From positions 1 through 64,000 of IMG/VR virus record IMGVR_UViG_3300043446_003193: a stretch of DNA of 64,000 nucleotides. One strand, given 5' to 3'. This document shows, piece by piece, positions 28,923 through 54,233 of the stretch. Origin of the DNA: a virus. Each line of letters starts with the position of its first letter. Position 1 is the stretch's first letter. The notes beneath the pieces were generated by a model. It was not told the DNA's origin, did no database searches, and saw only the letters and a list, made by a program, of their open reading frames with translations. The position numbers and the translations under genes are program-made.

Positions 28923-30123
28923 AATTACCTTTTGATGGAAATCTAGTCCATCCATTAGACCATATTGGTTTGGATAGTGTTTCCATTTCAGCTTTTGTAT
29001 AAGATACCTCTTTGTTACCTTGTGATAAAGCTTTTGTTTTCATATCTGCTGCAGTAAATACAGTAGAAGTAGATTTGAAGTTTAACAATGGGTCAAATGC
29101 CTGAATTTCATTGTTTTCAAATTTAGAAACCCCATCTTTGTAAGCTTGTGCAGTTTCGTTACTTTCAATTGAAAACCCACCTTTTTGATAACCAATGATT
29201 TTTGAGTTAGTCATTGTAAATTGAGTTGCACGTCTCCATCTTAAACCTAAATTATGGTTTGCTAAAGAAGCTGCATCAAATGGTCCAACTAAAATCATAT
29301 TATCCAATTTAGGATGTGTGAATGGCTGTGCGGTTGTACCTGTTCCATCATTATCACACTCCACACCATTTCCAGCATCACCAGCATCTACGAATTGTGG
29401 GTCTCTCTTTGATACTGAATAAGATACCGAACCTCTATATCCAAAATCAAAATCGTAATCATCATCAGCAGTTGCGTATGCGTATAAGTTTTTAGCGTTT
29501 ACAGTTCCACCAAAGAATTCAAATGCATCATCGTTAGCGTAAACAGTTTGGATATACTCTAAAGTTGTTCCACTACCTACACCACCTAATGTTAATCCAT
29601 TGATTTCAGAGTTTGGCATTGCTGCAATTCCTGCATATTCAATTCTAACATATTTTAGGATACCACTATTATCCAAATCGTTAGTTCCACCATAAGGTCT
29701 ACCAATACCACCTTCAATTGTTGGTTCAGAAGTTCTATTGGTAGTTGCTCTACCTAATATAACTACACCACCCCAATCACCAGGCAATCTTTCACCAACA
29801 GCTTTACCAGATGTAAATACGATTGGTTTTGCTGCAGTTCCTTCTGCGATTATTTGTGCACCTCTTTCAATAATTAATGCACCTTTCTCAGCGATATCGG
29901 ATACGATTGTTGTACCTGGCTGAATGATAAGTTTTGCACCATCAATTACATAAACATATCCTTTTAAGGTCCATGTTTTATCTGATGTTAAAGTTGTTGT
30001 TGTGTTAATGTTACCACTCAAAATTGTTGATGATGGTACATTTACAGGAATATCAGTTCCACCTAATTCTTTTTTGCAACTGAATAATCCCAATACTAAA
30101 ATAATTCCTAATAGTTTTTTCAT
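28921..30123 (-). CDS. lipoprotein (400 aa), beta-rich; possible right-handed beta-helix
   Basis: Lipobox LGLFSC; immediately downstream of the TonB-dependent-receptor-like gene with a 4 nt overlap. Confidence 0.55.
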   Translation of the reverse strand: MKKLLGIILVLGLFSCKKELGGTDIPVNVPSSTILSGNINTTTTLTSDKTWTLKGYVYVIDGAKLIIQPGTTIVSDIAEKGALIIERGAQIIAEGTAAKPIVFTSGKAVGERLPGDWGGVVILGRATTNRTSEPTIEGGIGRPYGGTNDLDNSGILKYVRIEYAGIAAMPNSEINGLTLGGVGSGTTLEYIQTVYANDDAFEFFGGTVNAKNLYAYATADDDYDFDFGYRGSVSYSVSKRDPQFVDAGDAGNGVECDNDGTGTTAQPFTHPKLDNMILVGPFDAASLANHNLGLRWRRATQFTMTNSKIIGYQKGGFSIESNETAQAYKDGVSKFENNEIQAFDPLLNFKSTSTVFTAADMKTKALSQGNKEVSYTKAEMETLSKPIWSNGWTRFPSKGN

Positions 30124-32372
30124 AAATTCAAATTTAATGTTAATGAAATTGTTTGTTCGTTGTTTGTTTTTATAAGATTTCTCTTTGTTTGTAACTTTTG
30201 ATAATAGATTGATGGTTGCGCAAATACATCGCCTATTGCCAATTTTATTTCCCCTTTATTTAATTTATGTAAAAGAGTTATATCCAATACATCTCTGCTG
30301 TTTTCAAAAATGTCTGGATAACCCTGAAATCCTATTGCTGATATTCTATCACCTACTCTATTGTAAGTTATGTTAATTGTATTTTTCTTTTTGTGAATAT
30401 TAAATCCACTATTTAATACATAATTTGATTGTCCCTGTAATTGTCTTTTAACTCCTTTAACATTTACTTCAGAATTCATCACAGAAGCGTTTGTGTAAAC
30501 ATCAAACCAATCATTTAATTTTTTACGAAATTCCAATTCAACACCATAAAGATATGCGTTATTGGGATTTGAATAAGTTAATAATAGATTAGATGGAACT
30601 GAACCATCTGCTACTATTTGCTCAATTGGTTTTATAAAGTTTTTACCAAAAAAAGATACTGAAATATTTTCTCCCGCGTTTGGATATAATTCCCATTTCA
30701 AATCTAAATTGTATATGTCAGATTTTTCCAATTTAGGATTACCCAATAATTGTGCATTTCTTACAAAATCATAATAAGCAAAATTAGCTACTTCTCTAAA
30801 CTCAGGTCTTGCTAATGTTTTACTTAATGAAAATCTATATTTTGTTTTTTCTAAATTGTAAGAAAGATTTAGTGATGGTAATACATCCAAATATTCTCTA
30901 TTAACTTTAACTTTACTTCCACTAAAATCTGCAGTAGATACATCAAATAGATTATATTCAGTTCTAACGCCTGTATTTAATTTCCATAAACCAAATTCTT
31001 TGTCCAACATTACATACCCACTACCTAAATCAAAATCAGCAGTATATTTGTCTGTGTTGTTTGTTATCTCATCTAACATATCAGTTGAAAGATAACGAAA
31101 TATTCTTGCATTAAATCCTCTAATCTTTTTTAAGTATCCACCACCAATCTTAATATCACCAAACGATTTATTAACATTACCATTAAAACTATTTTCATCC
31201 ATTACACTCCAAAAACGATATGTATCTCTCCATGCAGTTGTATATGGTTCGTTTACTCCTAATGATTTTGTAATTGGATTAACTCTATAATCAGGTTGTT
31301 CTCTGAATATAAAATTGTATCCTAAATTAAAATCCCAAGTTTTAAGTTTACCATCAAATTGAGAATTAACTACAACATTGTTTATATGGTTAGATGAATT
31401 ACTATGAACATTTTGAACATTATCATAGTTTTCACCATTTCTATTCATATAAGAATCATCGGCTTGATAGTTCACCAATGTTTTCCAACTATATCGGTTC
31501 TCACCTAAATAAGTTAAATTCAATAAACCATTTGCGGAAAATCTTTTTGAGAATAAAGTATCTCTATAATCGTATGCTAATTCAGTTGAAGATTGATAAT
31601 CTATTCTATCTATATAATTCAGTCCATAAGAATTTCTAATTGTTGAACTGAATAAAGCGTTGAATTTGTTTTTCTTTACACCAAATGATAGGCCACCATT
31701 TAAGTTTGGAGATGATGTAAACCCTTCTATGATTGGATTACTTAATTGTTTTGTGTATAACCTCTTATCACCATTACTACTAATACGATATCCGTAAGTA
31801 GATGGGAATGTGGAAGGGAATTCAGTAGCTTGAACTAACTTAAAATCTTTAAGAGATGAAACTGAGCCCCAACCACTTCCCAATGAGATATTAAAAAAGT
31901 TATCGGATACTTCTTTTGTTGAAACTTGCACCAATCCACCACTCCAATCGCCAGGTAGATTTGCCGATGCCGATTTAGATACTATAATATTATCAATTAA
32001 TGCCGTTGGAATTAAATCAAAAGAAAATGCTCTCTTATCAGGTTCAGTTGATGGTAGAAGGGTTTTGTTTAACATAGCAGAATTATAACGGTCTGCTAAT
32101 CCTCTTACTAATACAAACTTATCGTTTTGTATAGTAACACCACTTACTCTTTTAAGTGCATCCCCAACATTTCTATCAGGTGTTTTTTTAATAAAATCAA
32201 TGGATACACCATCCGAAACTACTGATGCGTTACGAATGGTTGATATTACAGCTACTTCAGTAGATTTTTTACCTGCTGAACGGACTGTAACCGTTGATAA
32301 TTGTTTGGAAAATAATGTGTCTTGGGAATATGTTACAAATGGAAGTAACAATAACAATAAAAAAATCCTCAT
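30120..32372 (-). CDS. TonB-dependent-receptor-like outer membrane protein (750 aa)
   Basis: Signal peptide; TonB-box-like STVTV; plug motifs DALKRVSGVTIQ...FVLVRGL...RYN; beta-rich C-terminus. Confidence 0.65.
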   Translation of the reverse strand: MRIFLLLLLLPFVTYSQDTLFSKQLSTVTVRSAGKKSTEVAVISTIRNASVVSDGVSIDFIKKTPDRNVGDALKRVSGVTIQNDKFVLVRGLADRYNSAMLNKTLLPSTEPDKRAFSFDLIPTALIDNIIVSKSASANLPGDWSGGLVQVSTKEVSDNFFNISLGSGWGSVSSLKDFKLVQATEFPSTFPSTYGYRISSNGDKRLYTKQLSNPIIEGFTSSPNLNGGLSFGVKKNKFNALFSSTIRNSYGLNYIDRIDYQSSTELAYDYRDTLFSKRFSANGLLNLTYLGENRYSWKTLVNYQADDSYMNRNGENYDNVQNVHSNSSNHINNVVVNSQFDGKLKTWDFNLGYNFIFREQPDYRVNPITKSLGVNEPYTTAWRDTYRFWSVMDENSFNGNVNKSFGDIKIGGGYLKKIRGFNARIFRYLSTDMLDEITNNTDKYTADFDLGSGYVMLDKEFGLWKLNTGVRTEYNLFDVSTADFSGSKVKVNREYLDVLPSLNLSYNLEKTKYRFSLSKTLARPEFREVANFAYYDFVRNAQLLGNPKLEKSDIYNLDLKWELYPNAGENISVSFFGKNFIKPIEQIVADGSVPSNLLLTYSNPNNAYLYGVELEFRKKLNDWFDVYTNASVMNSEVNVKGVKRQLQGQSNYVLNSGFNIHKKKNTINITYNRVGDRISAIGFQGYPDIFENSRDVLDITLLHKLNKGEIKLAIGDVFAQPSIYYQKLQTKRNLIKTNNEQTISLTLNLNL

Positions 32373-32453
32373 AAATTATTTAAGTTAGTTCCCAAATAAT
32401 TATGAGGATTTTTTACAATATTTACCGATTTAATATTATCAAATCGTTATCTA

Positions 32454-32723
32454 TTATCCTTCTTGTTCAGCGTCTAATTTAGCCGCATCATGTTCTGCTT
32501 TTCTATTGATGTACTTATCAACCGAAGCAATACCAAATGAACCCAAAGTGATTACCAAAAATCCGTTAAAGATATACTCATTAATCAATAATGGTTTACC
32601 CATCCAACCTGTGATAAGGTCAACTGCTAATGCAATTACCATACAACCGAATGATAAGAAACCAACTACTGATTTTTCGTTGATGTCGTTGTTGTCTTTA
32701 AATAATTCTTTAAAAAATCCCAT
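32454..32723 (-). CDS. small membrane protein (89 aa)
   Basis: Two TM helices. Confidence 0.45.
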   Translation of the reverse strand: MGFFKELFKDNNDINEKSVVGFLSFGCMVIALAVDLITGWMGKPLLINEYIFNGFLVITLGSFGIASVDKYINRKAEHDAAKLDAEQEG

Positions 32724-32762
32724 AGTTTTAAATTTTAAATGTGAATAACTATGTAACCGATT

Positions 32763-33335
32763 TTATCCTTTGTACTCTTCTTGTAAAAGTCCACAATTTT
32801 GACACTCCATATGTCCATCACCATCAGCATCTCCCCATACATGTTCACATTGTCTATGTGCATGGTGTTCAAATTCTAACTTCTCCATTTCTTGATCATG
32901 TTCTTGTTGGTCTTTTGCCAATTCAAAGTTTTGTAGGTTTTCTACTACTGCTAATTTGCTAGCTGCAGCAGCTCCTTGAACAAATGCATCTGGAATAATT
33001 GGAGTTGGAATTGCGTTAGTTTCCTTCATATCATTTGTATGTGAAAGTGTAACACCATCTTCTTCATCCATTTTCTGAACTAACATCTTATCCTTATCGG
33101 TATCACTAAACCAATAGTCAATGATTTTACCATAAGAACCAATGAAAGCACCTAACAACAACATTAATAATTCTTTCCATGCTGCCGCCATTGGGGTTTG
33201 TAAACTAATTGCAGTAAAGATACCTGCAATAATTACCATAAACCCACCTAATACCATAGCGGTAATATACCATCTACGGCTCATCATTTTATTTAACAGG
33301 TCTCTAAACCCGCTTGGTGGTTGTTGATTACTCAT
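32763..33335 (-). CDS. membrane protein with C-terminal Cys/His-rich metal-binding tail
   Basis: TM helices; EFEHHAHRQCEHVWGDADGDGHMECQNCG. Confidence 0.5.
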   Translation of the reverse strand: MSNQQPPSGFRDLLNKMMSRRWYITAMVLGGFMVIIAGIFTAISLQTPMAAAWKELLMLLLGAFIGSYGKIIDYWFSDTDKDKMLVQKMDEEDGVTLSHTNDMKETNAIPTPIIPDAFVQGAAAASKLAVVENLQNFELAKDQQEHDQEMEKLEFEHHAHRQCEHVWGDADGDGHMECQNCGLLQEEYKG

Positions 33336-33435
33336 TTTCTTTTTCTTTTTTAATTCTTTCGTTATTTGCGTGGTTCATAGCCCACAAAAAGAAAGCTATG
33401 AAAACTAATGTAACTCCTATTTTGTATCCCATATA

Positions 33436-33741
33436 TTACCAAGCTGCTGGCTTCTCTTTGAATTCATCACCTTCTTTTTTCTTAACTGGAGCTGCTGGTT
33501 TAGCTGCTTCACCACCTTTATTGATGATTACAGTTTTACCGCCACCTGCTTGTTGAGTTTGGTTGTTCTGAATGTTGATTACAGGAGCCGCTTGTTGAGT
33601 TGGTGTTGCTTCTTTTTCATCACCACCTGTTAATTTTGTTGTTACCCATCCACCTACACCTAAAGTGATTGTAGATACGAAACCGATGATTACATTCTTA
33701 ATAGATGAACCACCACCTTGTTGTTCTTGTTCTTCTGCCAT
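33436..33741 (-). CDS. small Gly-rich membrane protein
   Basis: ORF track. Confidence 0.45.
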   Translation of the reverse strand: MAEEQEQQGGGSSIKNVIIGFVSTITLGVGGWVTTKLTGGDEKEATPTQQAAPVINIQNNQTQQAGGGKTVIINKGGEAAKPAAPVKKKEGDEFKEKPAAW

Positions 33742-33752: not shown

Positions 33753-34121
33753 TTATAATTTGTTAAAATCTGTTATACCTAATTGTTTTCCGTTTACGTC
33801 ATATAAACCAATTCTATATGCTGATGATGGAAGTGCTGATGTATATACTTTTAAGATATTATCACCACTATTTACCCATGCTGTTTCTTTTGATACTACT
33901 CTGTTTGCAATATCAAATATCTTTATTGTCACATTTTGCCCTGCTTCAACTTTTACATTCATTGCTACTTCTGTTGTCACAAATGGTGATTGTAATTTAA
34001 TACCAACGGATTGTGTAATTGTAAGACCGTTGTCAACCGCAACTGGTGGGGTTACAAATGGGTCTTTTCTACATCCTGCTATAACCATAATTCCGAATAA
34101 TACGAATAATAGTTTTTTCAT
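33753..34121 (-). CDS. small lipoprotein (paralog of 34123..34467)
   Basis: MKKLLFVLFGIMVIAGC lipobox. Confidence 0.5.
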   Translation of the reverse strand: MKKLLFVLFGIMVIAGCRKDPFVTPPVAVDNGLTITQSVGIKLQSPFVTTEVAMNVKVEAGQNVTIKIFDIANRVVSKETAWVNSGDNILKVYTSALPSSAYRIGLYDVNGKQLGITDFNKL

Positions 34122-34122
34122 C

Positions 34123-34467
34123 TTAATTTATTGTTATTTTAGTTTTTCCAATTTCTTTGTTACTCTCGTCCGTTAGGTATAAATATAAACTTTTTTGTGA
34201 TAATGATTTAGTATATATTTTTTTTGTGTTATCTCCCACAATTCCAGTAAATTTTTCCTTTGTTATTACCTGCGTTTGTGTTGAATCCATTAAAGTAAGT
34301 ATATATTTACCTGCTGATGTAAGTTTAATTTGTATATCTTGTCCGTCTTTAACCACTACTTCCGATTTTGAAAATATATCGGTTGTTGTTGGTTGTGGTG
34401 TTGGTATAACTTCTACTTTTCTACAAGCTACCAAACTTAAAAATAATATGAATAGTAATTTTTTCAT
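34123..34467 (-). CDS. small lipoprotein (paralog of 33753..34121)
   Basis: MKKLLFILFLSLVAC lipobox. Confidence 0.5.
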   Translation of the reverse strand: MKKLLFILFLSLVACRKVEVIPTPQPTTTDIFSKSEVVVKDGQDIQIKLTSAGKYILTLMDSTQTQVITKEKFTGIVGDNTKKIYTKSLSQKSLYLYLTDESNKEIGKTKITIN

Positions 34468-37127
34468 TATTGTATTTTTACTCCTAATGATTTTCCATCT
34501 TTATTAACTGCTTCCGAGTTACCCATGCTCACCAATCCCAATCCACCATTCAATTTTTGTGTAGTAGTGAATAGAACTTTATAAGTTGCTGATGTAATTT
34601 GTGAACCATCGGTATTTAAAGAACCCACATTAATAAAAGTTCCTTTGTTTGCGGAATAGTTAGTTGGTGAACCATTTACGATATATTCCGTTTTATTATA
34701 TTTTAACAAAGAGTTATCATAGTTTAATTGGAATTGAGTTCCTACTATGTTGTTATCTCCTGGGTTAAATACGATTTCTACATATACACTATCACCACTC
34801 AATTCAGTCATTATACTTGCATTCATTGGAATACTTACACTTGTGGATTTTATTCTTTCACCAAAGTTTGCTGACATATTTGTTATACCATTTGCCGGCG
34901 GTGTTGCTGAATGTGATAAGTTTACATCACCTTTCCAAGTTACTGCTAAATTGTATGAATAGTTTGTTTTTCCTTCTAATAAACTAAAACTATATTCCTT
35001 TCCTAAATAAGATGGGAATTGTTGCCAATTAGATTTTCCAATAGTTCCGTATGTAGAGTCCAACACAATTTTCATAGTGCTATCCAAAACATACTTATTT
35101 ACTAAATCTCTTGCACCAGTTAGATATTGTAACAATCTAAAGCAATCTCTTTCATCAAATACATTATTACCATCTACGTCTGCGTTTTTGAATTGAATAC
35201 CATATCCAAATTGTGTTCCACTTCCACCACCAAACAAACCACCTGCTTCTGAATATTCTTTGAATGCTAAATAAACATCCGATACAGTCACAATACTATT
35301 ATAAAGTGTTTTAAGTTGTGTAGAGTCATAGTCTTGGAATACAAATTTGTGTTGTTTGTATGTACCTTGTTGTGTAAGTGTAATTGTACTTTGGAAAGCG
35401 TAATCCGTATTCCAATTATTTACATTTCTAATGTATGAATTTGATGCTGAAGTTCCATCTGTTATTTTTGTTAGTGGTGATGGGACTGTGTATATTGCCC
35501 AACCATTTGCATCATGTGAAGTATATGTCATAGGGCCATCATATGCATCAAATATTTTTGTATGTGTGATTTTGGTAGGGTCAATACTACCAACTTGTCT
35601 CATATCAATTAATAATCTACTTTTACCACTACCCAACCAACTTGCGTTTGGATTTGTATAAGACCATTCAACTTGACCCGGTGTAATTGTTGCTTTATAT
35701 GCAGTTGGATTGGCAACAAATTGATAACTCAATCCCCACGCACCCCACACATCCGATGTTACTCCGTTTTGTGTTGTTGATGGATAATCGTTTTGCCCTT
35801 CAACTATTTTAATGTAAACTTCTTTTGTTTGTCCGGCAGTTACTATTCCTGCATGCACCGCTGCTTTTGGAATATATGAGTCGTTAGTGTATATGTTTGT
35901 TCCCCAAATTGCACCACCACCAGTGTTACCTGTTATGGTCATTTTATATATCTTACCAATATCACTTTCACTATATTGAGTCATATCATTTGCTGCTGCT
36001 ATTGATATTGCAGATGAAAATACCTTTGCCGTATCTAATTGAGTTGATAGAGTTACCCTTCCCACTCCATTTAATGCCACATTTGAATTTGCAGTCCAAG
36101 CTGATGTTGCATCATTTCTTTTATGTAATGCTGCTGAAAATTTAGTTTCATCAATATTACCACCAAAGTTAATTGTAAATTGTGATTTTAAATTATTGTT
36201 TACACCATTATAATGCACCACACTATTATTATAAAAATCAGTAAAAGTTTGGTCATCAGGATTACTCCAAGTTCCAAACTCAATTACATATCCACCCAAT
36301 CCACCAGGGAACGCCGTTGCTTCGGGTCCAAAATCATTCCATTGTGAACCATTCCATTTTGTTACAACATAATCCTCACCAGGTCCCCAGTTGTTTGGTT
36401 CACCACTTGCCCAGTTATTATATTGCCCTGTTTGATTTGTTGAATTTATTCTTACGACAGTTCCATTTTCAGGTCCTGCATCAATTACAAATCTACCTTC
36501 GGTTACATTATCCGTAAGTGCGAATATAATATTATTCCCAGGTACATTGTTTACAACAAAGTTATCTTCATCCGATGATGTGATTGTCATTAAATAACCC
36601 GTTTGTCCTTTGAATGATTGTTGAGTACAATAGGTTTTAAGATTATTATATGCAGTTACAGAAGTTCCACTAAATGCGGTTACCCCGGTAAACCCACTCA
36701 TAGGTCTATAAAAGTGTCCGTTTGTTGGTAAGTAATAATATCCCGTTGGGTTGACAGTTGCTGATACTGAAATACTAATATCACCCGCTGTTCCCGTTGT
36801 GTTTATTTTCATTGATGCTAATACATTGTTAATATTAGCCATTGTTCCGGTGAATGAAATACGAGTTTTATTACCACTCATTGTGTAACCGGTTGATGCA
36901 GTTACGCCGGATGTTGTTGAGAAATAAAATGTAGTTCCGCTTGGTGCTGTGGGTAAACCAATTGCACAAAGTAAAGTTGCAGTAGAGTTGAACCCACTCA
37001 ATGTAAATCCACTTGCATCTTGTCCTGATGTATTGACAGTAAATTCTTTAGGGTCTGGTGCATTTACCTGCTGACCAAACCCTAAAAATGATATAAATAA
37101 GAATAGTGTAACTAATAATTTTTTCAT
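34467..37127 (-). CDS. very large secreted beta-rich protein (886 aa); adhesin, lectin or receptor-binding candidate
   Basis: Signal peptide ending FGQ; Thr/Ser/Gly/Asn-rich beta composition. Confidence 0.55.
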   Translation of the reverse strand: MKKLLVTLFLFISFLGFGQQVNAPDPKEFTVNTSGQDASGFTLSGFNSTATLLCAIGLPTAPSGTTFYFSTTSGVTASTGYTMSGNKTRISFTGTMANINNVLASMKINTTGTAGDISISVSATVNPTGYYYLPTNGHFYRPMSGFTGVTAFSGTSVTAYNNLKTYCTQQSFKGQTGYLMTITSSDEDNFVVNNVPGNNIIFALTDNVTEGRFVIDAGPENGTVVRINSTNQTGQYNNWASGEPNNWGPGEDYVVTKWNGSQWNDFGPEATAFPGGLGGYVIEFGTWSNPDDQTFTDFYNNSVVHYNGVNNNLKSQFTINFGGNIDETKFSAALHKRNDATSAWTANSNVALNGVGRVTLSTQLDTAKVFSSAISIAAANDMTQYSESDIGKIYKMTITGNTGGGAIWGTNIYTNDSYIPKAAVHAGIVTAGQTKEVYIKIVEGQNDYPSTTQNGVTSDVWGAWGLSYQFVANPTAYKATITPGQVEWSYTNPNASWLGSGKSRLLIDMRQVGSIDPTKITHTKIFDAYDGPMTYTSHDANGWAIYTVPSPLTKITDGTSASNSYIRNVNNWNTDYAFQSTITLTQQGTYKQHKFVFQDYDSTQLKTLYNSIVTVSDVYLAFKEYSEAGGLFGGGSGTQFGYGIQFKNADVDGNNVFDERDCFRLLQYLTGARDLVNKYVLDSTMKIVLDSTYGTIGKSNWQQFPSYLGKEYSFSLLEGKTNYSYNLAVTWKGDVNLSHSATPPANGITNMSANFGERIKSTSVSIPMNASIMTELSGDSVYVEIVFNPGDNNIVGTQFQLNYDNSLLKYNKTEYIVNGSPTNYSANKGTFINVGSLNTDGSQITSATYKVLFTTTQKLNGGLGLVSMGNSEAVNKDGKSLGVKIQ

Positions 37128-38782: not shown

Positions 38783-39430
38783 TTACTCAAATAGTTTGGT
38801 GATAAGTTTAATAGAACCTTTCTTCAATGCATTACTCAATGAAGTTTGGTTAAACTTACCACCCTCATCTACTATGAGAGTTGACATTGAGATTTCTGCT
38901 GAACTTTCTTCTACAATAACCTCTTTGTCTTTTTTGCCATCTTTGTAAAGTGTTCCTCTAAGGCGAATGACTACCTCTTCTTCTCCTTTGTGAAATACGG
39001 AGATATTTGATTTTGTTGTTAAAACATCTAAATAGATAATTTCAACTTTTAATTTTTGTGTTGCTGATGGTGCTAAATCCAATCCTTTTTCTTGTAATGC
39101 TTCTTCCAAAACATTTTTAACACCAAATGCTAAATTTCTGTTTCCAGCTAATTTACCAACTTTAACTTTATTTTCTACACTTTCTACCCAAATGTGTTCT
39201 TCGGCATTGTACCAAATATTTTCTGGTGAGTTTTTGAATGTACCATCAAATTTCCAACTAAACCAATTTGCAATGTTTGTTTCTAATTCAGTTTTACCTG
39301 CAAAATGTATACCAACCATTGTAAGTTGAAATAATAATGCAAATACAATCCATATACCTACTAAAGTTAAAAACCCTCTAAATAGATAATCTCCTAAATT
39401 TTGTTTTAAATGTAATAACTTTGCTTTCAT
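38783..39430 (-). CDS. membrane-anchored protein (215 aa)
   Basis: N-terminal TM helix pair. Confidence 0.45.
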   Translation of the reverse strand: MKAKLLHLKQNLGDYLFRGFLTLVGIWIVFALLFQLTMVGIHFAGKTELETNIANWFSWKFDGTFKNSPENIWYNAEEHIWVESVENKVKVGKLAGNRNLAFGVKNVLEEALQEKGLDLAPSATQKLKVEIIYLDVLTTKSNISVFHKGEEEVVIRLRGTLYKDGKKDKEVIVEESSAEISMSTLIVDEGGKFNQTSLSNALKKGSIKLITKLFE

Positions 39431-39711: not shown

Positions 39712-39745
39712 AAAAAAGGGAGTATTTAACTCCCTTTCTTTTTAT
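39712..39745 (-). terminator. terminator hairpin AAGGGAGT-ATTTA-ACTCCCTT flanked by A/T runs
   Basis: Paralogous to the hairpin at 28891..28922. Confidence 0.5.
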
Positions 39746-40578
39746 GCTAATAAAGAATAATATTCTTTAAAATGCTTAATTCTATCTGGCAATCCAATTG
39801 TACCACCATTTACTCTTTTAGTAATTGATGTTACAACTGCATCGGTTGCACCACCATCTGCCATTTTGTGTAAACCATTCTTATTAAAGAACCATGCTGC
39901 TGATAATAATGCATATTTTTCAGCTACTACTTGTGGATTTGCTGTTACATCTTCACCAATTGATTTACCAAATGCAGTGTAGTTATCTCTACCTGTTAAT
40001 TGGATAAAACCACGACCACAAAACTTTGCACCATCACCACTACTTTCAGGTCCATTACCCATTCTACCACCATATACTTTGTTTGCAATCTTTTCAGGTT
40101 GTCTAGCATATTGATTTGCCAATGCTTCTGTTGGGAAATACTTTTTGAATATACCCATCAAACCTTTTGCTGAATAATTTAAGTTTTCTTTTGTAAGTCT
40201 AAATCCACCACTTTCATGTCCACATTGTGCTAAAAAGTGTGCTAATCTCAATGCAGAGTCAATTTGAAACTTTTGTGCTACTGCAGGAATCATTGCGATT
40301 ACTGAATCTGGAATATGTCCTTTTAATTTATCTAATTTTAAACCAGTTGAATTAGCTACTGCTACTGCTTGTTGTTTTACTTCTGGATGTTCTTCTTCAC
40401 CCATAATCATTGCCCAAGTCTTGTCACCTACAATGCCATCTGCGGTTAAACCATGAGCTGCTTGCCATAATTTTACTGCTTCTTCGGTTTTCGGTCCAAA
40501 GTTACCAACTGGCTCTAAGTGTAATTTCTTTTGTAATAATTTTACGTTTTCGTTATTATCGCCTTTTCTTAACAACAT
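39742..40578 (-). CDS. endolysin: N-terminal peptidoglycan-binding domain plus GH19 chitinase/lysozyme-like catalytic domain
   Basis: PG_binding_1-like LLQKKLHLEPVGNFGPKTEEAVKLWQAAHGLTADGIVGDKTW; GH19-like AHFLAQCGHESGGF. Confidence 0.75.
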   Translation of the reverse strand: MLLRKGDNNENVKLLQKKLHLEPVGNFGPKTEEAVKLWQAAHGLTADGIVGDKTWAMIMGEEEHPEVKQQAVAVANSTGLKLDKLKGHIPDSVIAMIPAVAQKFQIDSALRLAHFLAQCGHESGGFRLTKENLNYSAKGLMGIFKKYFPTEALANQYARQPEKIANKVYGGRMGNGPESSGDGAKFCGRGFIQLTGRDNYTAFGKSIGEDVTANPQVVAEKYALLSAAWFFNKNGLHKMADGGATDAVVTSITKRVNGGTIGLPDRIKHFKEYYSLLA

Positions 40579-41729: not shown

Positions 41730-41785
41730 TAGCTGATTTTCCTTTTGCCATTATTTTGGTTATTTTCCGATTTACTTTACTTTAC

Positions 41786-42055: not shown

Positions 42056-42108
42056 GTTTTTTGTTTTTGTTTAGAATTAAATATAAATATAAAAAATTTT
42101 TAGTTAAA

Positions 42109-42357: not shown

Positions 42358-42359
42358 AA

Positions 42360-42566: not shown

Positions 42567-42594
42567 AATTTTTGTTTTTTGTTTGTTAATACTC

Positions 42595-42625
42595 TAATAT
42601 ACGAAAAATATTTTAATCTACCAAA
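42595..42625 (-). promoter_or_regulatory. promoter motif
   Basis: rc reads TTTGGTAGATTAAAATATTTTTCGTATATT. Confidence 0.5.
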
Positions 42626-42626
42626 T

Positions 42627-42660
42627 AAAAAAATCCCCCACTTTTAAGGTGAGGGATTAA
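42627..42660 (-). terminator. terminator-like hairpin after TonB-dependent receptor gene
   Basis: AATCCCCCAC...GTGAGGGATT adjacent to an A-run. Confidence 0.4.
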
Positions 42661-42685
42661 ATTAGAGCTTATTTGACTGCGTATA

Positions 42686-45600
42686 TTATTTACCGAAAAT
42701 GTATCTGATACCAAATTGTGCTGTCCACACATCAAATACTGATGAGTTTTTGCTATAAGTATCTTTCAACAATACAGTTGAGCCATCTAACAATCTTTGT
42801 GTTGCAAATTTGTAAACTGGCTCGTTATTAACTACTGATGAATAAGTTAAAATTGCCGGATTTGTAAATCTTTGAGATACACCCCAATCTTCATTAACCA
42901 TATTACCAAAGTTAAGAATATCAAAACGTAATTGAATTGTGTTTCTATCGCCCTTAACATTTACATAGAAATCTTGAACTACTGAAAGGTCAAATCTATG
43001 TAACCAAGGTAAGAATGAACCATTACGTTCTGCGTACTGTCCTTTACGAGTTGATAGGTAATCATCTTGATTAATGTAATTCCAAAATGCTGCTTGTTGT
43101 TCAGCTTCGGTGTAAGTTTTTGTACCTACAACCAATGGTGCGAATTTAACTTCTGTCATTGATTTTGGAACATATATTAATTCATTATTATTAACTCTAT
43201 CTCCGTTCAAATCACCTGCAACAAAGTAAGATGTACTACCACTTCTTTGTCCAACATATCCTATTGTTACTGAAGTTGCTGCACCGTATCCTTTCTTACC
43301 ATATTCAATTCTATATCCCAATAAACCTACTGCTCTATCAGGAACTACGAAATCTGAATTTGAAAGAATTGGGTTGTTGTTACCATTGATACTTCTAATT
43401 GATTGCCATGTTCCACTTGCGATAGAACCTGCACTCATAAAGTCTTCAGCGTTTGATTTAGTGTAAGCAATACTACCGAAGAAACCTTTTGAATATGGTT
43501 TTTCTAATTTAACTGAAAGTGCATTGTAGAATGACTCATCGTTATTAGTTAAAACCGCACCCATAGATACATTATCGTTTACTCTTACACCAGCATCAGT
43601 TCTTGCATACAATGCTCTTTGGTCTGCTCCACTAAATTTACCAATTGGTGCATCCAAGTTTGCGTTGTAGTAATGAACTGCATTAAGTGTTTTGTTGTAT
43701 AAATACTCTACACTACCTACTAAACCTAATGGTAATTTTTGGTCTACTGCTAAATTAGTTTTCCAAACTTGTGGAAACTTATAGTTAGGGTCAGTAAATG
43801 CTAAATCAAATGTTGAAGGAAGGGTTGGAGTAGAAGGGATGAAATATTTTTCAGGGTTAGCAGTAAAACCATATTGAGATGCTGCTGCACCACTTACATC
43901 AATAAATCCTGTCAATACACCATTGTTACCAACTTGGTTAGATACGAATACATACGGAGGTCTACCGGTGAATACACCTGTACCACCTCTAACTTGTGTT
44001 TTCTTATCGTTCTTAACATCCCAGTTGAAACCAAATCTTGGTTCCCACAATAATTGTGTTTTAGGTAAAGTTGCTGTATTGAATTTCTCACCACCTGCAA
44101 ATGTCATAGCAGTTACTGCTTTATTTTCCAATGCTGTGTTTTCAAATCCAATAATAGCAGTTCTTAAACCAAATGTTAATTTTAAGTTTTGAAGTGCTTG
44201 GTATTCATCTTGTCCGTATAAATCCAATCTTTGAGTTTTCAACACTTGCATTGGGTCAACTGCCCCAGGTAATGCTGAATATCTGTATTGAAATCTATAT
44301 GGTGCCGTTGTAGATGGTTTACCACCATTTGCCAAACTCTCATTTGCTGCTTTATAGAAGTCAGCCAAAGAGTTGAAAATATAAACACCATTTGATGCAG
44401 GATAGAATAAGTTGTTAGATTGGTATTTCTCATAATTGAAACCTAATGTGAAAGTGTGCTTATCTGCATACTTTGTTAAGTTATCGGTAATGTGGAAAGT
44501 ATTGTAATCTAATTTATTTCCTGGAGTGAATGGGTCAAAACCTGTTGAAATATAGTTTACTCTTGCAGAAGTTCCATCAGCAATATCAATTGTTGGGAAC
44601 ACACCTGTCATATATGCTCTATCTTCAATTTGTTTATCATAACCAACGATTAAGTTGTTATGTAATGTGTTTGAAAATTTAGAGTTTAATTCAACAACTG
44701 CTGAACGAGTATTATCCATAATGATATAACCACTATTCTTATAACTCATAGAATTAAAGATAGTAGTTCTATTACCTGCACCTGCTGATTGAGAGTTAGA
44801 AATGTTAATCTCTGCATCAGAATTGTGGTGAACATAACGAGCAGTTAATTTATGCTTATCGTTGATGTTCCAGTCTACTCTTACTAAGAATTTCTTACTT
44901 GCATTTGTATTAGAATATCCTTCCCATGGGCCAGTTACATAATTGAATTTATCTTTCATAAAATCAGAAAGAGTTTTCAAATCATCATACTTAACTCTTG
45001 TTGGTTGAGCACCACCCAACGGAGAACCTGCAGATGTCCAAGTTGTACCTGGCTCTGTTTTCTCTAATTGTTCGTAGTTACCAAAAATGAATAATTTGTT
45101 TTTGATAATTGGTGCACCTAAACGGAAACCAGTAACTTTCTCATCAAATTTAGATGCGGTTACAGGAACTCCTGCTGCTGAATTACCAACATAACGAGAA
45201 CTATTATCTCTTTGTGTTTGATAATAAGAACCTTCAACTTTGTTTGTACCTGAACGTGTAACTGCATTGATACCTGCGCCAGTAAACCCACTCTGACGAA
45301 TATCAAATGGAGCAACATTCACTTGTAATTGTTCAATCGCATCTAATGATATTGCAGATGAACCTGTTCTACCACCAGCTTGTGCCGAACTACCCAATCC
45401 AAAATTGTTATTGAATTGAGAACCATCAATTGTGAAGTTATTCAAACGAGAGTCTTGTGCTCCGAATGAAGAACCATCACCCAATGGATTGTACTTTGTA
45501 ATTCCGTTGATTGTTCTTGCTCCTGTAATAGGAATAGAAGTCAATTCTCTTCTACTAAATACTTGTGCAGCACCAGTTCTATCCTTAGAGAATAGATTGT

Positions 45601-45967
45601 TTTTGGTTCCTGTCACAACTACATCTTTCAAAGAAGTTGCTTCACTTAATAACTTAAAGTCTACGTTTGATGTAACACCTAATTGAGTGTTTACATCTTT
45701 CTCTTCTCCTTTTCTAAATCCTACAAACGAAGCATGGATTGTATATGGTCCACCTACTCTTACGGCAGGTAAAACATAAACACCATTTTTGTTTGTAACC
45801 GATTTGTACTCTGTACCTGTCGGTGTATGTGTAGCGTGAATTGTTGCACCTACTAACACCTCATTTTTTTCGTTCTTAACAACACCAGAAATAGTAGAAG
45901 TGGTAACTTGACCAAATCCAATTAAAACTGATACTGAAAGGAACAACGATAGAATCGCTTTTTTCAT
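42686..45967 (-). CDS. TonB-dependent receptor with N-terminal carboxypeptidase-regulatory-like domain (SusC/RagA-type architecture, 1093 aa)
   Basis: Signal peptide ending FGQ; CarbD-like ISGVVKNEKNEVLVGATI; plug DVVVTG...RRELTSIPITGARTINGITKYNPLG; long beta-barrel. Confidence 0.75.
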   Translation of the reverse strand: MKKAILSLFLSVSVLIGFGQVTTSTISGVVKNEKNEVLVGATIHATHTPTGTEYKSVTNKNGVYVLPAVRVGGPYTIHASFVGFRKGEEKDVNTQLGVTSNVDFKLLSEATSLKDVVVTGTKNNLFSKDRTGAAQVFSRRELTSIPITGARTINGITKYNPLGDGSSFGAQDSRLNNFTIDGSQFNNNFGLGSSAQAGGRTGSSAISLDAIEQLQVNVAPFDIRQSGFTGAGINAVTRSGTNKVEGSYYQTQRDNSSRYVGNSAAGVPVTASKFDEKVTGFRLGAPIIKNKLFIFGNYEQLEKTEPGTTWTSAGSPLGGAQPTRVKYDDLKTLSDFMKDKFNYVTGPWEGYSNTNASKKFLVRVDWNINDKHKLTARYVHHNSDAEINISNSQSAGAGNRTTIFNSMSYKNSGYIIMDNTRSAVVELNSKFSNTLHNNLIVGYDKQIEDRAYMTGVFPTIDIADGTSARVNYISTGFDPFTPGNKLDYNTFHITDNLTKYADKHTFTLGFNYEKYQSNNLFYPASNGVYIFNSLADFYKAANESLANGGKPSTTAPYRFQYRYSALPGAVDPMQVLKTQRLDLYGQDEYQALQNLKLTFGLRTAIIGFENTALENKAVTAMTFAGGEKFNTATLPKTQLLWEPRFGFNWDVKNDKKTQVRGGTGVFTGRPPYVFVSNQVGNNGVLTGFIDVSGAAASQYGFTANPEKYFIPSTPTLPSTFDLAFTDPNYKFPQVWKTNLAVDQKLPLGLVGSVEYLYNKTLNAVHYYNANLDAPIGKFSGADQRALYARTDAGVRVNDNVSMGAVLTNNDESFYNALSVKLEKPYSKGFFGSIAYTKSNAEDFMSAGSIASGTWQSIRSINGNNNPILSNSDFVVPDRAVGLLGYRIEYGKKGYGAATSVTIGYVGQRSGSTSYFVAGDLNGDRVNNNELIYVPKSMTEVKFAPLVVGTKTYTEAEQQAAFWNYINQDDYLSTRKGQYAERNGSFLPWLHRFDLSVVQDFYVNVKGDRNTIQLRFDILNFGNMVNEDWGVSQRFTNPAILTYSSVVNNEPVYKFATQRLLDGSTVLLKDTYSKNSSVFDVWTAQFGIRYIFGK

Positions 45968-54232: not shown

Positions 54233-54233
54233 A

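What the first reader, a model, noticed from the sequence alone, without database searches (positions are those of the whole stretch)
30120..45967. Two TonB-dependent-receptor-like genes, lipoproteins and very large secreted beta-rich proteins inside a phage-like gene array
A 1093 aa CarbD plus plug plus barrel receptor (42686..45967) and a 750 aa receptor-like protein (30120..32372) with an adjacent lipoprotein form a SusC/SusD-like pair. Also present are 886 aa and 549 aa secreted proteins with FGQ-type signal peptides, paralogous small lipoproteins, and the OM barrel at 25698..27182. If this is a phage, it encodes host outer-membrane transporters (auxiliary nutrient uptake or receptor masking/superinfection exclusion). 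Alternatively the large secreted proteins are virion fibers using a host-like secretion signal, or the window spans a phage-host junction.
Basis: partly seen in the sequence, partly recalled or inferred. Interest (0 to 1): 0.65.

Follow-up and report, generated by a model that had tools for sequence, protein, structure and literature searches.

The report
Huge phage carries host phosphorus-uptake receptors
A widespread group of very large freshwater phages, probably infecting Aquirufa-like Bacteroidota, carries intact copies of host outer-membrane nutrient receptors, one of them a receptor plus surface lipoprotein taken from the host's phosphate-starvation locus, so the phage probably improves its host's phosphorus scavenging while it replicates.

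Summary
42686-45967(-) encodes a 1093 aa CarboxypepD_reg + OMP_b-brl_4 receptor. 30120-32372(-) encodes a 750 aa Plug + OMP_b-brl_3 receptor, followed by a 400 aa lipoprotein.

The window is phage. It has a one-strand gene array, 19 tRNAs plus a tmRNA and an endolysin. T4-type DNA polymerase and clamp-loader genes lie just outside it. About 160 IMG/VR contigs, up to 326 kb, carry the same genes. In one of them the receptor-lipoprotein cassette sits between the tail sheath and tail tube genes.

The cassette is host-derived. Aquirufa chromosomes carry the same adjacent pair at 68-73% identity. In Bacteroidota the pair lies among PHO4, PhoU, OprP-type porin and phosphatase-family genes. By domain content, gene order, neighbours and fold it matches the phosphate-starvation-induced Fjoh_0545/0546 pair of Flavobacterium johnsoniae.

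The closest cellular relative of the 1093 aa receptor sits in a receptor-fasciclin-PhoD cluster. Its commonest annotated phage neighbour, level with a GroEL-like gene, is a signal-peptide nuclease.

All these genes are under purifying selection and match phage codon usage. The best reading is a phage-encoded phosphorus-acquisition module. Superinfection exclusion is not excluded. The function of the large secreted proteins is unresolved.

The parts
42686..45967 (-). 1093 aa TonB-dependent-receptor-like protein: signal peptide ..GFGQ, CarboxypepD_reg domain, TonB-box-like LKDVVVTG, inferred plug, then a large barrel.
   Evidence: Pfam, (OMP_b-brl_4 210 bits; CarboxypepD_reg 65.6 bits). The Plug HMM is not detected. 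78 viral loci carry it: about 70 at 68-84% identity and 8 at 36-37%. Cellular relatives are 43-58% identical. dN/dS ~0.14.
45996..46021 (-). Terminator-like hairpin with a T-run immediately upstream of the 1093 aa gene.
   Evidence: Together with the site at 42632-42658 it brackets the gene as its own transcription unit, as in a moron.
42632..42658 (-). Terminator-like hairpin with a T-run immediately downstream of the 1093 aa gene.
30120..32372 (-). 750 aa TonB-dependent receptor (Plug + OMP_b-brl_3). This is the short form, which lacks the N-terminal CarboxypepD_reg domain present in bacterial homologs and in most phage homologs.
   Evidence: 80 viral loci at 67-93% identity. Aquirufa homolog 68-69% identical. 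Length classes of ~750 aa (25 loci) and ~825 aa (41 loci). dN/dS ~0.13.
28921..30123 (-). 400 aa lipoprotein (lipobox LFSC), right-handed parallel beta-helix. It is the putative surface 'lid' or substrate-capturing partner of the 750 aa receptor.
28891..28919 (-). Terminator-like hairpin ending the receptor-lipoprotein operon.
28144..28866 (-). 240 aa signal-peptide protein conserved next to the receptor-lipoprotein pair. Function unknown.
   Evidence: 30 loci at 72-99% identity. Synteny. dN/dS ~0.10. No family hit.
25698..27182 (-). 494 aa signal-peptide protein with a Ser/Lys/Glu-rich low-complexity middle and a conserved beta-rich C-terminal ~215 aa domain. The 'OM barrel' call is unverified.
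   Evidence: Conserved downstream of the pair in 25 loci. No family, PDB or OprP relation.
24605..25240 (-). 211 aa DNA/RNA non-specific endonuclease with a signal peptide (..TFSQ), so predicted periplasmic or secreted.
   Evidence: Pfam Endonuclease_NS 115 bits. PHROG nuclease. It lies first or second downstream of the 1093 aa receptor in 14 of 78 loci, tied with a GroEL-like gene as the commonest neighbour.
34467..37127 (-). 886 aa secreted protein: LCCL domain, weak C-type lectin hit, dockerin-like motif and C-terminal cohesin-like domain.
   Evidence: LCCL 52 bits. (Cohesin 27.8 bits when the C-terminus is scanned alone; Dockerin_1 E 0.047). 34 loci. dN/dS ~0.26.
37131..38780 (-). 549 aa secreted protein. 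Its C-terminal ~290 aa is paralogous to that of the 886 aa protein.
   Evidence: E 7e-9. Weak Cohesin hit. 38 loci.
33753..34467 (-). Two paralogous small lipoproteins, 122 aa and 114 aa.
   Evidence: E 2e-11. Lipoboxes AGC|R and VAC|R are visible. Conserved in 26-27 loci.
38783..39430 (-). 215 aa membrane-anchored protein that scores just above the Pfam cut-off for Lipoprotein_16. It starts the conserved module.
   Evidence: 25.8 bits, cut-off 25. Synteny.
39742..40578 (-). Endolysin (PG_binding_1 + GH19 muramidase/chitinase-like), followed by a terminator at 39712-39740.
32454..33741 (-). Three small conserved proteins (89, 190 and 101 aa) between the secreted-protein genes and the receptor operon. 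By eye, the 89 aa and 190 aa proteins have membrane-spanning stretches. Function unknown.
   Evidence: No family hits.
46473..47769 (-). Nucleoside-phosphorylase-superfamily protein (46473-47060), IscA-like protein (47030-47362) and NifU-like protein (47359-47769), just upstream of the 1093 aa receptor.
   Evidence: (PNP_UDP_1 31.9 bits, cut-off 25.1). Linked to the receptor in only a few loci.

Best explanation
The window is part of the accessory region of a huge (roughly 200-330 kb), T4-like, lytic-type myovirus of freshwater Bacteroidota. The most likely hosts are Aquirufa and related Cytophagales.

The phage has captured and kept host outer-membrane genes:
1. A two-gene operon encoding a TonB-dependent receptor and a surface beta-helix lipoprotein. 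It was copied from the host's phosphate-starvation locus. It is the same kind of pair as Fjoh_0545/0546 of F. johnsoniae and BT4055/4056 of B. thetaiotaomicron.
2. A separate 1093 aa receptor in its own terminator-bracketed unit.
3. A signal-peptide non-specific nuclease.
4. Several secreted and lipoprotein genes.

Proposed mechanism (inferred). During a long infection these proteins are exported by the host Sec, Lol and BAM machinery, as their Bacteroidota-type signal peptides and lipoboxes suggest. The receptors insert into the outer membrane and are energised by host TonB. The lipoprotein captures, or possibly processes, a phosphorus-containing substrate at the cell surface and hands it to the receptor. 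The nuclease releases nucleotides from extracellular or periplasmic nucleic acid. The result is more phosphorus for making many large genomes in phosphorus-poor lake water, comparable to pstS and phoA in cyanophages.

Shown here: the identity of the genes, their phage location, their host origin, the Pho-locus context of the bacterial homologs, the fold of the lipoprotein, and purifying selection.

Inferred: expression, localisation, the substrate, and the benefit to the phage.
For: Phage identity:
- All genes on one strand, with 19 tRNAs plus a tmRNA.
- An endolysin.
- DNA polymerase B, Phage_clamp_A, a clamp loader and a DNA ligase within 10 kb outside the window.
- The polymerase is 48.7% identical to that of Microcystis myophage Mel-JY01 and about 30% identical to T4-like phages.
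- About 160 IMG/VR contigs up to 326 kb carry the genes.
- In L130 the cassette lies between tail sheath (PHROG E 2.8e-55) and tail tube (E 1.7e-21).

Host origin:
- The same adjacent pair is on Aquirufa isolate chromosomes (704 kb and 604 kb contigs) at 68-73% identity, with no other window gene nearby.
- Phage and Aquirufa lipoproteins form one clade that excludes other Bacteroidota.
- Phage contig L018 and an Aquirufa MAG (L166) both carry metagenome number 3300044630 in their names.
- All the signal peptides read end in Q at the predicted cleavage site.

Phosphorus link:
- The Aquirufa locus reads receptor, lipoprotein, phosphatase-superfamily enzyme, PHO4, DAO-family oxidoreductase, PHO4, OprP-type porin.
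- PHO4 lies near the pair in 27 of 80 loci across families.
- An unbiased Pfam census of 143 neighbours in 31 non-redundant loci is topped by PhoU_div (10), HATPase_c (8), PHO4 (7), HD (6) and Porin_O_P (5).
- In F. johnsoniae a receptor with the same three Pfam domains (Fjoh_0545) and a downstream pectin-lyase-fold lipoprotein (Fjoh_0546) lie in the phoBR/OprP cluster and are strongly induced by phosphate depletion (PMC8115612).
- Price and Arkin propose this lipoprotein family as a receptor lid (bioRxiv 10.1101/2023.03.17.533168).
- The phage lipoprotein models as a beta-helix.
- The closest cellular relative of the 1093 aa receptor (58% identical) sits in a receptor-fasciclin-PhoD cluster. 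Another (43%) lies next to nucleoside-catabolism genes.
- The secreted nuclease ties with a GroEL-like gene as the commonest neighbour of the 1093 aa receptor in phages.

Retained function:
- dN/dS is 0.10-0.14 for the receptors and the 240 aa protein.
- The TonB-box region aligns with bacterial homologs.
- 86 residues are invariant between phage and bacterial lipoproteins.
- GC3 is 0.17-0.24, against a phage mean of 0.19 and 0.34-0.36 in Aquirufa.
Against: - No substrate is known for this receptor-lipoprotein family even in bacteria. The phosphorus link rests on gene neighbourhood and on published expression data for a homolog whose sequence I could not compare directly.
- Contexts of the cellular relatives of the 1093 aa receptor are mixed. 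One has PhoD and one has nucleoside genes, but four show no phosphorus genes.
- The Plug HMM does not detect a plug in the 1093 aa protein.
- The window's 750 aa receptor has lost the N-terminal CarboxypepD_reg domain. It also ends in ..LNLNL, where Aquirufa has ..NYNF, so it lacks the C-terminal aromatic residue.
- Beta-helix folds are typical of polysaccharide-active enzymes, so a carbohydrate substrate is possible.
- Iron-related genes are also in the window: NifU, IscA and heme oxygenase.
- There are no expression or localisation data.
- dS is near saturation, so the dN/dS values are rough.
Confidence: 0.55

Rival explanations
1. Superinfection exclusion or receptor remodelling. The phage replaces or covers host surface receptors so that competing phages, or its own progeny, cannot adsorb or inject. 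It would use its own receptor variants and the lid lipoprotein, and a periplasmic nuclease would destroy incoming DNA.
For: - TonB-dependent receptors are classical phage receptors (established knowledge).
- The window's receptor is a modified version of the host protein, with the N-terminal domain lost and the C-terminus changed.
- A signal-peptide nuclease recurs next to the 1093 aa receptor.
- The same genome has a large surface-polysaccharide glycosyltransferase cluster. Chen et al. interpreted similar genes in related phages as surface remodelling against superinfection (PMC9723584).
Against: - Adding a receptor copy does not remove the host's own copies.
- Strong purifying selection covers the whole receptor, including the TonB-box region and plug, and 86 residues are invariant between phage and bacterial lipoproteins. 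This fits retained transport better than mere masking.
- Most phage homologs keep the full bacterial architecture.
Confidence: 0.2
2. Iron or heme acquisition. The receptors import siderophore-bound iron or heme to supply phage-encoded iron-sulfur and heme-handling enzymes.
For: - NifU-like and IscA-like genes lie about 1 kb upstream of the 1093 aa receptor.
- Heme oxygenase and a bilin reductase are at 12676-13789.
- Iron uptake is the archetypal role of these receptors.
- Prophages of ammonia oxidisers are reported to encode siderophore and heme receptors (bioRxiv 10.64898/2026.05.02.722434).
Against: - NifU and IscA are linked to the receptor in only 4-5 of the 83 loci that carry it.
- No siderophore, heme (HmuY) or FecR/FecI-type genes were seen next to any phage or bacterial homolog.
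- In the census, the neighbours of the 750 aa pair are dominated by phosphate genes, not iron genes.
- In F. johnsoniae the low-phosphate-inducible loci, the set that includes the homologous pair, are reported as tightly repressed under iron limitation (PMC8115612).
Confidence: 0.1
3. Glycan capture and uptake, working like a PUL. The beta-helix lipoprotein and the lectin, LCCL and cohesin-type secreted proteins bind or cut polysaccharide, and the receptors import the oligosaccharides for carbon and energy.
For: - The 886 aa protein has LCCL and lectin-like domains.
- The 750 aa receptor resembles TIGR01782, a subfamily that by general knowledge is linked to carbohydrate uptake (below cut-off).
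Against: - No glycoside hydrolase, polysaccharide lyase, SusD or sugar-catabolism genes accompany the pair in the bacterial neighbourhoods sampled.
- No SusC signature.
- Sequence identity to the beta-helix enzymes is only 8-14%. Catalytic residues were not compared.
Confidence: 0.1
4. Artefact: a chimeric assembly, a mis-binned bacterial fragment or a phage-host junction, so that the receptors are really host genes.
For: - Receptor genes of this type are typical bacterial genes.
- No PHROG family contains any of them.
- No GenBank phage matches the region at the DNA level. By protein search the 1093 aa receptor hits only two short unannotated 'Bacteriophage sp.' contigs.
Against: - The genes recur in about 160 independently assembled viral contigs from many samples, with phage neighbours.
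- One contig has the cassette between sheath and tube.
- Identity to the nearest bacterial genes is only 68-73%.
- GC3 matches the phage, not the host.
- Phage genes lie on both sides of the region.
Confidence: 0.02

Closest known systems
Fjoh_0545 (TonB-dependent transporter) and Fjoh_0546 ('FII' lipoprotein) of Flavobacterium johnsoniae, the 'PUSIV' cluster in the phoBR/OprP locus (Lidbury et al. 2021, PMC8115612)
   Same: - The receptor is followed directly by a lipoprotein.
- The receptor domains are Plug + CarbopepD_reg_2 + OMP_b-brl_3, as in the bacterial homologs and the long-form phage homologs.
- The lipoprotein has a pectin-lyase-type beta-helix.
- The neighbourhood contains an OprP porin, phosphate transporters and sensor kinases.
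   Different: - The phage copy is in a virus, outside any Pho regulon.
- The window's receptor lacks the CarbopepD_reg domain.
- Sequence homology to the Fjoh proteins could not be tested directly.
- The substrate is unknown in both.
BT4055/BT4056 of Bacteroides thetaiotaomicron, a non-SusC transporter with a putative 'lid' lipoprotein (Price and Arkin 2023, bioRxiv 10.1101/2023.03.17.533168)
   Same: - It is a non-SusC TonB-dependent transporter with a downstream pectin-lyase-superfamily lipoprotein.
- BT4056 is reported 40% identical to Fjoh_0546 and distantly related to Caulobacter ElpS.
- It is predicted to sit on the outer face of the barrel.
   Different: - The phage pair was not compared with BT4055/4056 at the sequence level.
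- No complex model was made here.
- The lid role is itself only predicted.
SusC/SusD (and PusC/PusD) outer-membrane complexes of Bacteroidota
   Same: The working principle is the same: a TonB-dependent barrel plus a surface lipoprotein that captures the substrate. PusCD variants are also induced by phosphate starvation.
   Different: - No SusC (TIGR04056) or SusD Pfam signatures.
- The lipoprotein is a beta-helix, not an alpha-helical TPR-like SusD.
- The pair is not a family member.
Phage phosphorus-acquisition auxiliary genes (pstS, phoA, phoD, phoH in cyanophages, pelagiphages and soil phages; e.g. PMC10987575)
   Same: These are host-derived genes in lytic phage genomes, thought to relieve phosphorus limitation during replication. 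PhoH homologs also occur in this phage clade.
   Different: The known examples are periplasmic binding proteins, phosphatases or cytoplasmic ATPases. I found no report of an outer-membrane TonB-dependent receptor plus lid.
TonB-dependent transporters reported in phages of ammonia-oxidising bacteria (bioRxiv 10.64898/2026.05.02.722434), and the 'host-interface island' of Flavobacterium jumbophages (PMC13573597)
   Same: They are precedents for phage-borne receptor genes, and for syntenic islands of secreted and lipoprotein genes in freshwater Bacteroidota jumbophages.
   Different: - The first set are siderophore- and heme-type receptors in phages of a different host group.
- The flavobacterial island is described without any receptor.
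- Neither shows a Pho-locus origin.

Membership tests
TonB-dependent receptor/transporter superfamily | C-terminal outer-membrane beta-barrel domain recognised by curated models | tested here: met
   1093 aa: PF25183 at 210 bits (cut-off 30). 750 aa: PF14905 at 88 bits (cut-off 27). A subset of 1093 aa homologs also carry PF00593.
TonB-dependent receptor/transporter superfamily | N-terminal plug domain | tested here: inconclusive
   750 aa: Plug PF07715 at 35.1 bits (cut-off 23.9), so met. 1093 aa: no Plug hit even at E<=1 on residues 100-340. A segment of about 125 aa between the TonB-box-like motif and the start of the barrel is the right size and aligns with bacterial homologs.
TonB-dependent receptor/transporter superfamily | TonB box near the mature N-terminus | tested here: inconclusive
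   Motifs LKDVVVTG (1093 aa) and LSTVTVRS (750 aa) align with the LxEVVVT and LADVVVKT motifs of bacterial homologs. This is by inspection only. Interaction with TonB cannot be tested here.
SusC/SusD pair | SusC/RagA signature (TIGR04056) | tested here: not met
   NCBIfam scan: no hit for the 1093 aa protein, and only TIGR01782 for the 750 aa protein.
SusC/SusD pair | SusD-family lipoprotein (Pfam SusD models; alpha-helical TPR-like fold) | tested here: not met
Fjoh_0545/0546 - BT4055/4056 type receptor plus pectin-lyase-fold lid | Receptor with Plug + CarbopepD_reg_2 + OMP_b-brl_3, directly followed by a lipoprotein gene | tested here: met
   The Aquirufa (L163) and Sediminibacterium (L182) homologs have all three domains. 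41 phage homologs are of the long (~825 aa) form, whose N-terminal extension resembles the bacterial CarboxypepD_reg region (by inspection). The window's copy lacks CarbopepD_reg. The pair is adjacent in 71 of 81 phage loci and 73 of 80 bacterial loci.
Fjoh_0545/0546 - BT4055/4056 type receptor plus pectin-lyase-fold lid | Lipoprotein with a pectin-lyase-like right-handed beta-helix fold | tested here: met
Fjoh_0545/0546 - BT4055/4056 type receptor plus pectin-lyase-fold lid | Location in a phosphate-starvation (Pho) gene neighbourhood in bacteria | tested here: met
   PHO4, PhoU_div, Porin_O_P, HisKA/HATPase and phosphatase-superfamily genes are the commonest neighbours.
Fjoh_0545/0546 - BT4055/4056 type receptor plus pectin-lyase-fold lid | Direct sequence homology to Fjoh_0546 or BT4056 | not tested
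   Those sequences were not obtainable with the tools. The AlphaFold database library was unavailable.
Fjoh_0545/0546 - BT4055/4056 type receptor plus pectin-lyase-fold lid | Induction by phosphate depletion; surface exposure | not testable with these tools
   Known only for Fjoh_0545/0546 (PMC8115612). By general knowledge, acidic residues after the lipid-modified Cys are a Bacteroidota surface-export signal. They are clear in the bacterial homologs (C-SKDLGGD, C-TKDEDEDED) and weak in the phage copy (C-KKELGGTD) (by inspection).
T9SS cargo proteins | C-terminal sorting domain (TIGR04183 or TIGR04131) | tested here: not met
   No hit in the 886 aa or 549 aa proteins. There is only a sub-threshold hit (17 bits, cut-off 23) in the 122 aa lipoprotein.
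Cohesin/dockerin modules | Cohesin and dockerin HMMs above cut-off | tested here: inconclusive
   886 aa C-terminus scanned alone: Cohesin 27.8 bits (cut-off 24.1) and Dockerin_1 at E 0.047. 549 aa: Cohesin 16-22 bits, below cut-off.
Phage auxiliary (host-derived) gene | Located inside a real phage genome with phage genes on both sides, and with a cellular homolog | tested here: met
   for phage context. for the Aquirufa homologs.

The most novel reading that the evidence does not exclude
A cosmopolitan clade of lytic huge phages installs its own nutrient-scavenging surface on the infected cell. The set comprises two TonB-dependent transporters, a beta-helix lid lipoprotein, a secreted nuclease, and lectin and cohesin-dockerin-type surface proteins. 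In effect the phage rebuilds the outer membrane of an abundant lake bacterium to draw phosphorus from dissolved organic matter and extracellular DNA for virion production. This would be the first outer-membrane active-transport system shown to work as a phage auxiliary function. It would also add a virus-driven route in freshwater phosphorus cycling.
Probability: 0.3. Interest if true: 0.75.

Novelty: new variant of a known kind. Interest (0 to 1): 0.6.

Why it matters
Phage genes that relieve phosphorus limitation are a textbook example of viruses reprogramming host metabolism. The known cases act in the periplasm or cytoplasm.

Here a whole outer-membrane uptake device, a receptor plus its surface partner, has been copied from the host's phosphate-starvation locus. 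It is kept under purifying selection in about 80 related viral contigs that I retrieved, and thousands of close protein homologs exist in metagenomes. A second receptor and a secreted nuclease accompany it.

If the genes are functional, three things follow:
- Infected cells ('virocells') of an abundant freshwater genus would have a different nutrient-uptake surface from uninfected cells.
- The data provide a natural handle on the unknown substrate of the Fjoh_0545/0546-BT4055/4056 family.
- They give a strong host prediction (Aquirufa) for a group of huge phages that has no cultured member.

Tried and rejected
- DNA search of 28000-47000 against GenBank phages found no match.
- Protein search of the 1093 aa receptor against phages found only two short unannotated fecal contigs.
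- Sequence and profile searches of PDB chains with both receptors, the lipoprotein profile and the 494 aa C-terminal profile found nothing.
- A first AlphaFold2 run of the lipoprotein with a shallow phage-only alignment failed (pLDDT 40). It succeeded only after diverse bacterial homologs were added.
- Foldseek against PDB gave no significant match. The AlphaFold database library was unavailable.
- I tested whether the 494 aa protein is an OprP-type phosphate porin. hhalign probability was 1.3%, so I rejected this.
- I tested whether the 549 aa protein is homologous to the T9SS proteins that follow bacterial relatives of the 1093 aa receptor. There is no similarity.
- The 240 aa and 215 aa proteins are not detectable paralogs.
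- A scan for capsid homologs with the Mel-JY01 capsid returned more than 600 hits. None of the contig names I checked among the 80 kept matched the receptor-bearing contigs, so it was uninformative. A local tblastn with Mel-JY01 structural proteins then found the sheath and tube linkage.
- The supplement of the bS21-phage paper is truncated in the library. It shows only an unrelated TonB annotation, so I could not tell whether those authors listed these receptors.
- Sigma-70-type promoter matches are fewer than in shuffled sequence and are not meaningful for Bacteroidota.

Full report
**What is there**

All ORFs of 100 aa or more that matter here lie on the minus strand of a 31.8% GC window. 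The window also has 19 tRNA genes and a tmRNA at 13965-20832.

The two receptor calls are real.
- The 1093 aa product of 42686-45967 scores 65.6 bits on CarboxypepD_reg and 210 bits on OMP_b-brl_4.
- The 750 aa product of 30120-32372 scores 35.1 bits on Plug and 88.4 bits on OMP_b-brl_3. All four scores are above the curated cut-offs.
- NCBIfam adds a sub-threshold TIGR01782 match for the 750 aa protein, and finds no SusC/RagA signature in either protein.
- The Plug model does not detect a plug in the 1093 aa protein, even when that region is scanned alone.

The 400 aa product of 28921-30123 has a lipobox and no family hit in the local libraries. The 886 aa and 549 aa proteins have signal peptides. 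The 886 aa protein has an LCCL domain, a weak lectin hit and a C-terminal cohesin-like domain with a dockerin-like motif. The two proteins share their C-terminal ~290 residues. The 122 aa and 114 aa lipoproteins are paralogs. The proposed 'OM barrel' at 25698-27182 could not be confirmed by any method available.

**Is it a phage?**

Yes.
- The window holds an endolysin, CobS/CobT-like genes and many glycosyltransferases of kinds common in large phages.
- The 10 kb beyond its ends hold a family B DNA polymerase, a T4 gp62-type clamp-loader subunit, a clamp-loader ATPase, dUTPase, a PD-(D/E)XK nuclease and a DNA ligase.
- The polymerase is 48.7% identical to that of Microcystis myophage Mel-JY01 and about 30% identical to T4-like phages.
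- Mel-JY01 has a ribosomal protein S21 gene between its prohead protease and capsid genes. That is the arrangement described for the huge S21-encoding phages of freshwater Bacteroidetes, which reach 331 kb (PMC9723584). The present clade is probably related to those phages. This is inferred, not shown.
- IMG/VR holds 78 loci with the 1093 aa receptor. About 70 are 68-84% identical. A further eight, L072-L079, are only 36-37% identical. It also holds 80 loci with the 750 aa receptor at 67-93% identity. The contigs reach 326 kb.
- In contig L130 the receptor-lipoprotein cassette, 67% identical to the window's, lies directly between a tail sheath gene (PHROG E 2.8e-55) and a tail tube gene (E 1.7e-21).
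- The receptor genes have GC3 of 0.17-0.24. The phage mean is 0.19 and the closest bacterial copies have 0.34-0.36.

Chimerism, a bacterial chromosome and a phage-host junction are therefore rejected.

**Architecture in the phage clade**

The 750 aa receptor and the 400 aa lipoprotein are adjacent in 71 of 81 loci. In many genomes they are part of a longer syntenic block, given here by window start coordinates:
- 38783, the 215 aa protein
- 37131, the 549 aa protein
- 34467, the 886 aa protein
- 34123 and 33753, the two small lipoproteins
- 33436, 32763 and 32454, three small proteins
- 28144, the 240 aa protein
- 30120 and 28921, the receptor and its lipoprotein
- 25698, the 494 aa protein

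.

The 1093 aa receptor is more mobile. It sits by the endolysin block, or next to the 750 aa receptor (L021/L124), or elsewhere. Its most frequent neighbours are a signal-peptide Endonuclease_NS homolog and a GroEL-like gene, each in 14 of 78 loci. In the window, terminator-like hairpins bracket the 1093 aa gene and close the receptor-lipoprotein operon, so both look like self-contained units.

Among phage homologs of the 750 aa receptor, 41 loci have an ~825 aa form with an N-terminal extension that resembles the bacterial CarboxypepD_reg region. 25 loci, including the window, have lost that extension.

dN/dS is about 0.13-0.14 for both receptors, 0.10 for the 240 aa protein and 0.26-0.33 for the 886, 549 and 494 aa proteins. 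dS is near saturation, so these values are rough.

None of these proteins matches any PHROG family.

**Origin**

A scan of one genome per species, using the lipoprotein alignment, gave 80 bacterial loci, almost all titled as Bacteroidota. A few MAGs carry other names. The best are Aquirufa isolates and MAGs. Their lipoprotein is 71-73% identical, and the receptor directly upstream is 68-69% identical. These genes sit on 604-704 kb chromosomal contigs that share no other gene with the window. Chitinophagaceae and Sphingobacteriaceae follow, at 50-65% (lipoprotein) and 35-42% (receptor).

In a neighbour-joining tree the phage and Aquirufa/Cytophagaceae sequences form one clade that excludes all other Bacteroidota. 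An Aquirufa MAG (L166) and a phage contig (L018) both carry metagenome number 3300044630 in their names. Every signal peptide read ends with Q at the predicted cleavage site, the pattern known from Bacteroidota (own knowledge). The likely host is therefore Aquirufa or a close relative.

**What the pair does in bacteria**

In Aquirufa the gene order is:
- receptor (CarbopepD_reg + Plug + OMP_b-brl_3)
- lipoprotein
- phosphatase-superfamily metalloenzyme
- PHO4 transporter
- an oxidoreductase
- PHO4 transporter
- phosphate-selective porin

.

PHO4 lies within the flanks in 27 of 80 loci, and an OprP-type porin in 13, including distant families. A census of the three genes on each side in 31 non-redundant loci (143 proteins) is headed by PhoU_div (10), HATPase_c (8), PHO4 (7), HD (6), Porin_O_P (5) and HisKA (5).

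This is the arrangement Lidbury et al. describe in F. johnsoniae. Fjoh_0545, a transporter with the same three Pfam domains, and Fjoh_0546, a pectin-lyase-fold 'FII' lipoprotein, lie in the phoBR/OprP cluster. Both are induced 2^8- to 2^10-fold by phosphate depletion and are abundant in the exoproteome (PMC8115612). Price and Arkin list the homologous BT4055/BT4056 as a non-SusC transporter with a putative lid, distantly related to Caulobacter ElpS.

I could not align it directly with Fjoh_0546 or BT4056. Membership of that family therefore rests on architecture, gene order, neighbourhood and fold.

**The 1093 aa receptor**

Its cellular relatives are more distant, at 58, 52, 50 and 49% identity in Cytophagales and Chitinophagales.
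- The closest (58%) is in a receptor-fasciclin-PhoD cluster.
- A 43% relative follows a nucleoside-catabolism cluster.
- The others are tandem receptors, or are followed by T9SS proteins or a DUF4397 protein.

These contexts, the recurrent secreted nuclease neighbour and a nucleoside-phosphorylase-family gene just upstream hint at nucleic-acid-derived or organic phosphorus. This is weak evidence.

**Mechanism proposed**

Shown: host-derived, intact and conserved outer-membrane genes in a huge phage, and a Pho-locus origin for one cassette.

Inferred:
- The proteins are exported by the host machinery.
- The receptors are energised by host TonB.
- The lipoprotein captures a phosphorus-containing substrate at the surface.
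- The nuclease liberates nucleotides.
- The extra phosphorus supports synthesis of many ~300 kb genomes.

I put this at about 0.55. The rivals are superinfection exclusion or receptor remodelling (0.2), iron or heme uptake (0.1), glycan uptake (0.1) and artefact (0.02). The roles of the 886, 549, 494, 240 and 215 aa proteins and the small lipoproteins remain unknown. They are predicted envelope or secreted proteins that travel with the cassette.

**Novelty**

Phage phosphorus genes are well known (pstS, phoA, phoD, phoH; PMC10987575). A 2026 preprint reports siderophore- and heme-type receptors in phages of ammonia oxidisers. A 2026 paper describes a 'host-interface island' of secreted and lipoprotein genes in Flavobacterium jumbophages without mentioning receptors.

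My literature searches found no report of a Pho-locus receptor-plus-lid cassette in phages, nor of phages of Aquirufa. This is a new variant of a known kind of phage-host interaction.

Noticed in passing
window 12676-13789: Adjacent heme oxygenase (13280-13789) and ferredoxin-dependent bilin reductase (12676-13305) genes. This pair is known from cyanophages, but here it sits in a phage whose host signals point to non-photosynthetic Bacteroidota.
   Followed up: no
window 13965-20832: An array of 19 tRNA genes plus a tmRNA with tag peptide DEMSTMTYNDLMAFVGADYAVAA. One tRNA-like call at 18975-19046 has an abnormal two-base anticodon loop assignment.
   Followed up: no
window 22219-23742: A 507 aa ORF with no Pfam or PHROG match and a very Cys-rich C-terminus (..CAYSYYGSCYSSFSCTKSYPYCCEPEGLCKSGCGPQCPLR). 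It is found on only a few public contigs.
   Followed up: partly
window 25698-27182 (residues ~95-285): A low-complexity stretch of about 190 residues that runs from poly-Ala/Ser through poly-Ser to Lys/Glu repeats. It links a small N-terminal domain to the conserved beta-rich C-terminal domain.
   Followed up: partly
L130 2177-10447 (IMG/VR contig 3300005662_000797): In this relative the receptor-lipoprotein cassette is inserted between the tail sheath (1064 aa) and tail tube genes. That is a very different position from the window, which shows that the cassette moves as a unit.
   Followed up: yes
L251 (Microcystis phage Mel-JY01) 21029-26627: The nearest cultured relative by DNA polymerase has a ribosomal protein S21 gene between prohead protease and capsid. 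This matches the published S21-encoding huge phages of freshwater Bacteroidetes, although its host is a cyanobacterium.
   Followed up: partly
L072-L079 (e.g. contig 3300034104_003795, 274 kb): A second group of viral contigs carries a receptor only 36-37% identical to the 1093 aa one. One of these contigs also carries the 750 aa-type receptor at its end (L143). Receptor genes have therefore been acquired or diversified more than once in these phages.
   Followed up: no
window 5477-9236 and 10854-12108: A CobS-like AAA ATPase (5477-6751) with a 763 aa CobT-like partner (6945-9236), and a cREC_REC receiver-like protein (10854-11333) overlapping a calcineurin-like phosphoesterase (11320-12108).
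   Followed up: no
window 48400-62005: A long run of glycosyltransferases, a HAD/nucleotidyltransferase fusion, a methyltransferase and an APS-kinase-like gene. It looks like a surface-polysaccharide modification cluster next to the receptor region.
   Followed up: no
L163-L242 (bacterial loci): Chitinophagaceae and Sphingobacteriaceae homologs of the lipoprotein are about 45 residues longer at the C-terminus than the Aquirufa and phage forms. NCBI and UniRef label some of them 'T9SS C-terminal target domain-containing protein', although they have lipoboxes.
   Followed up: no
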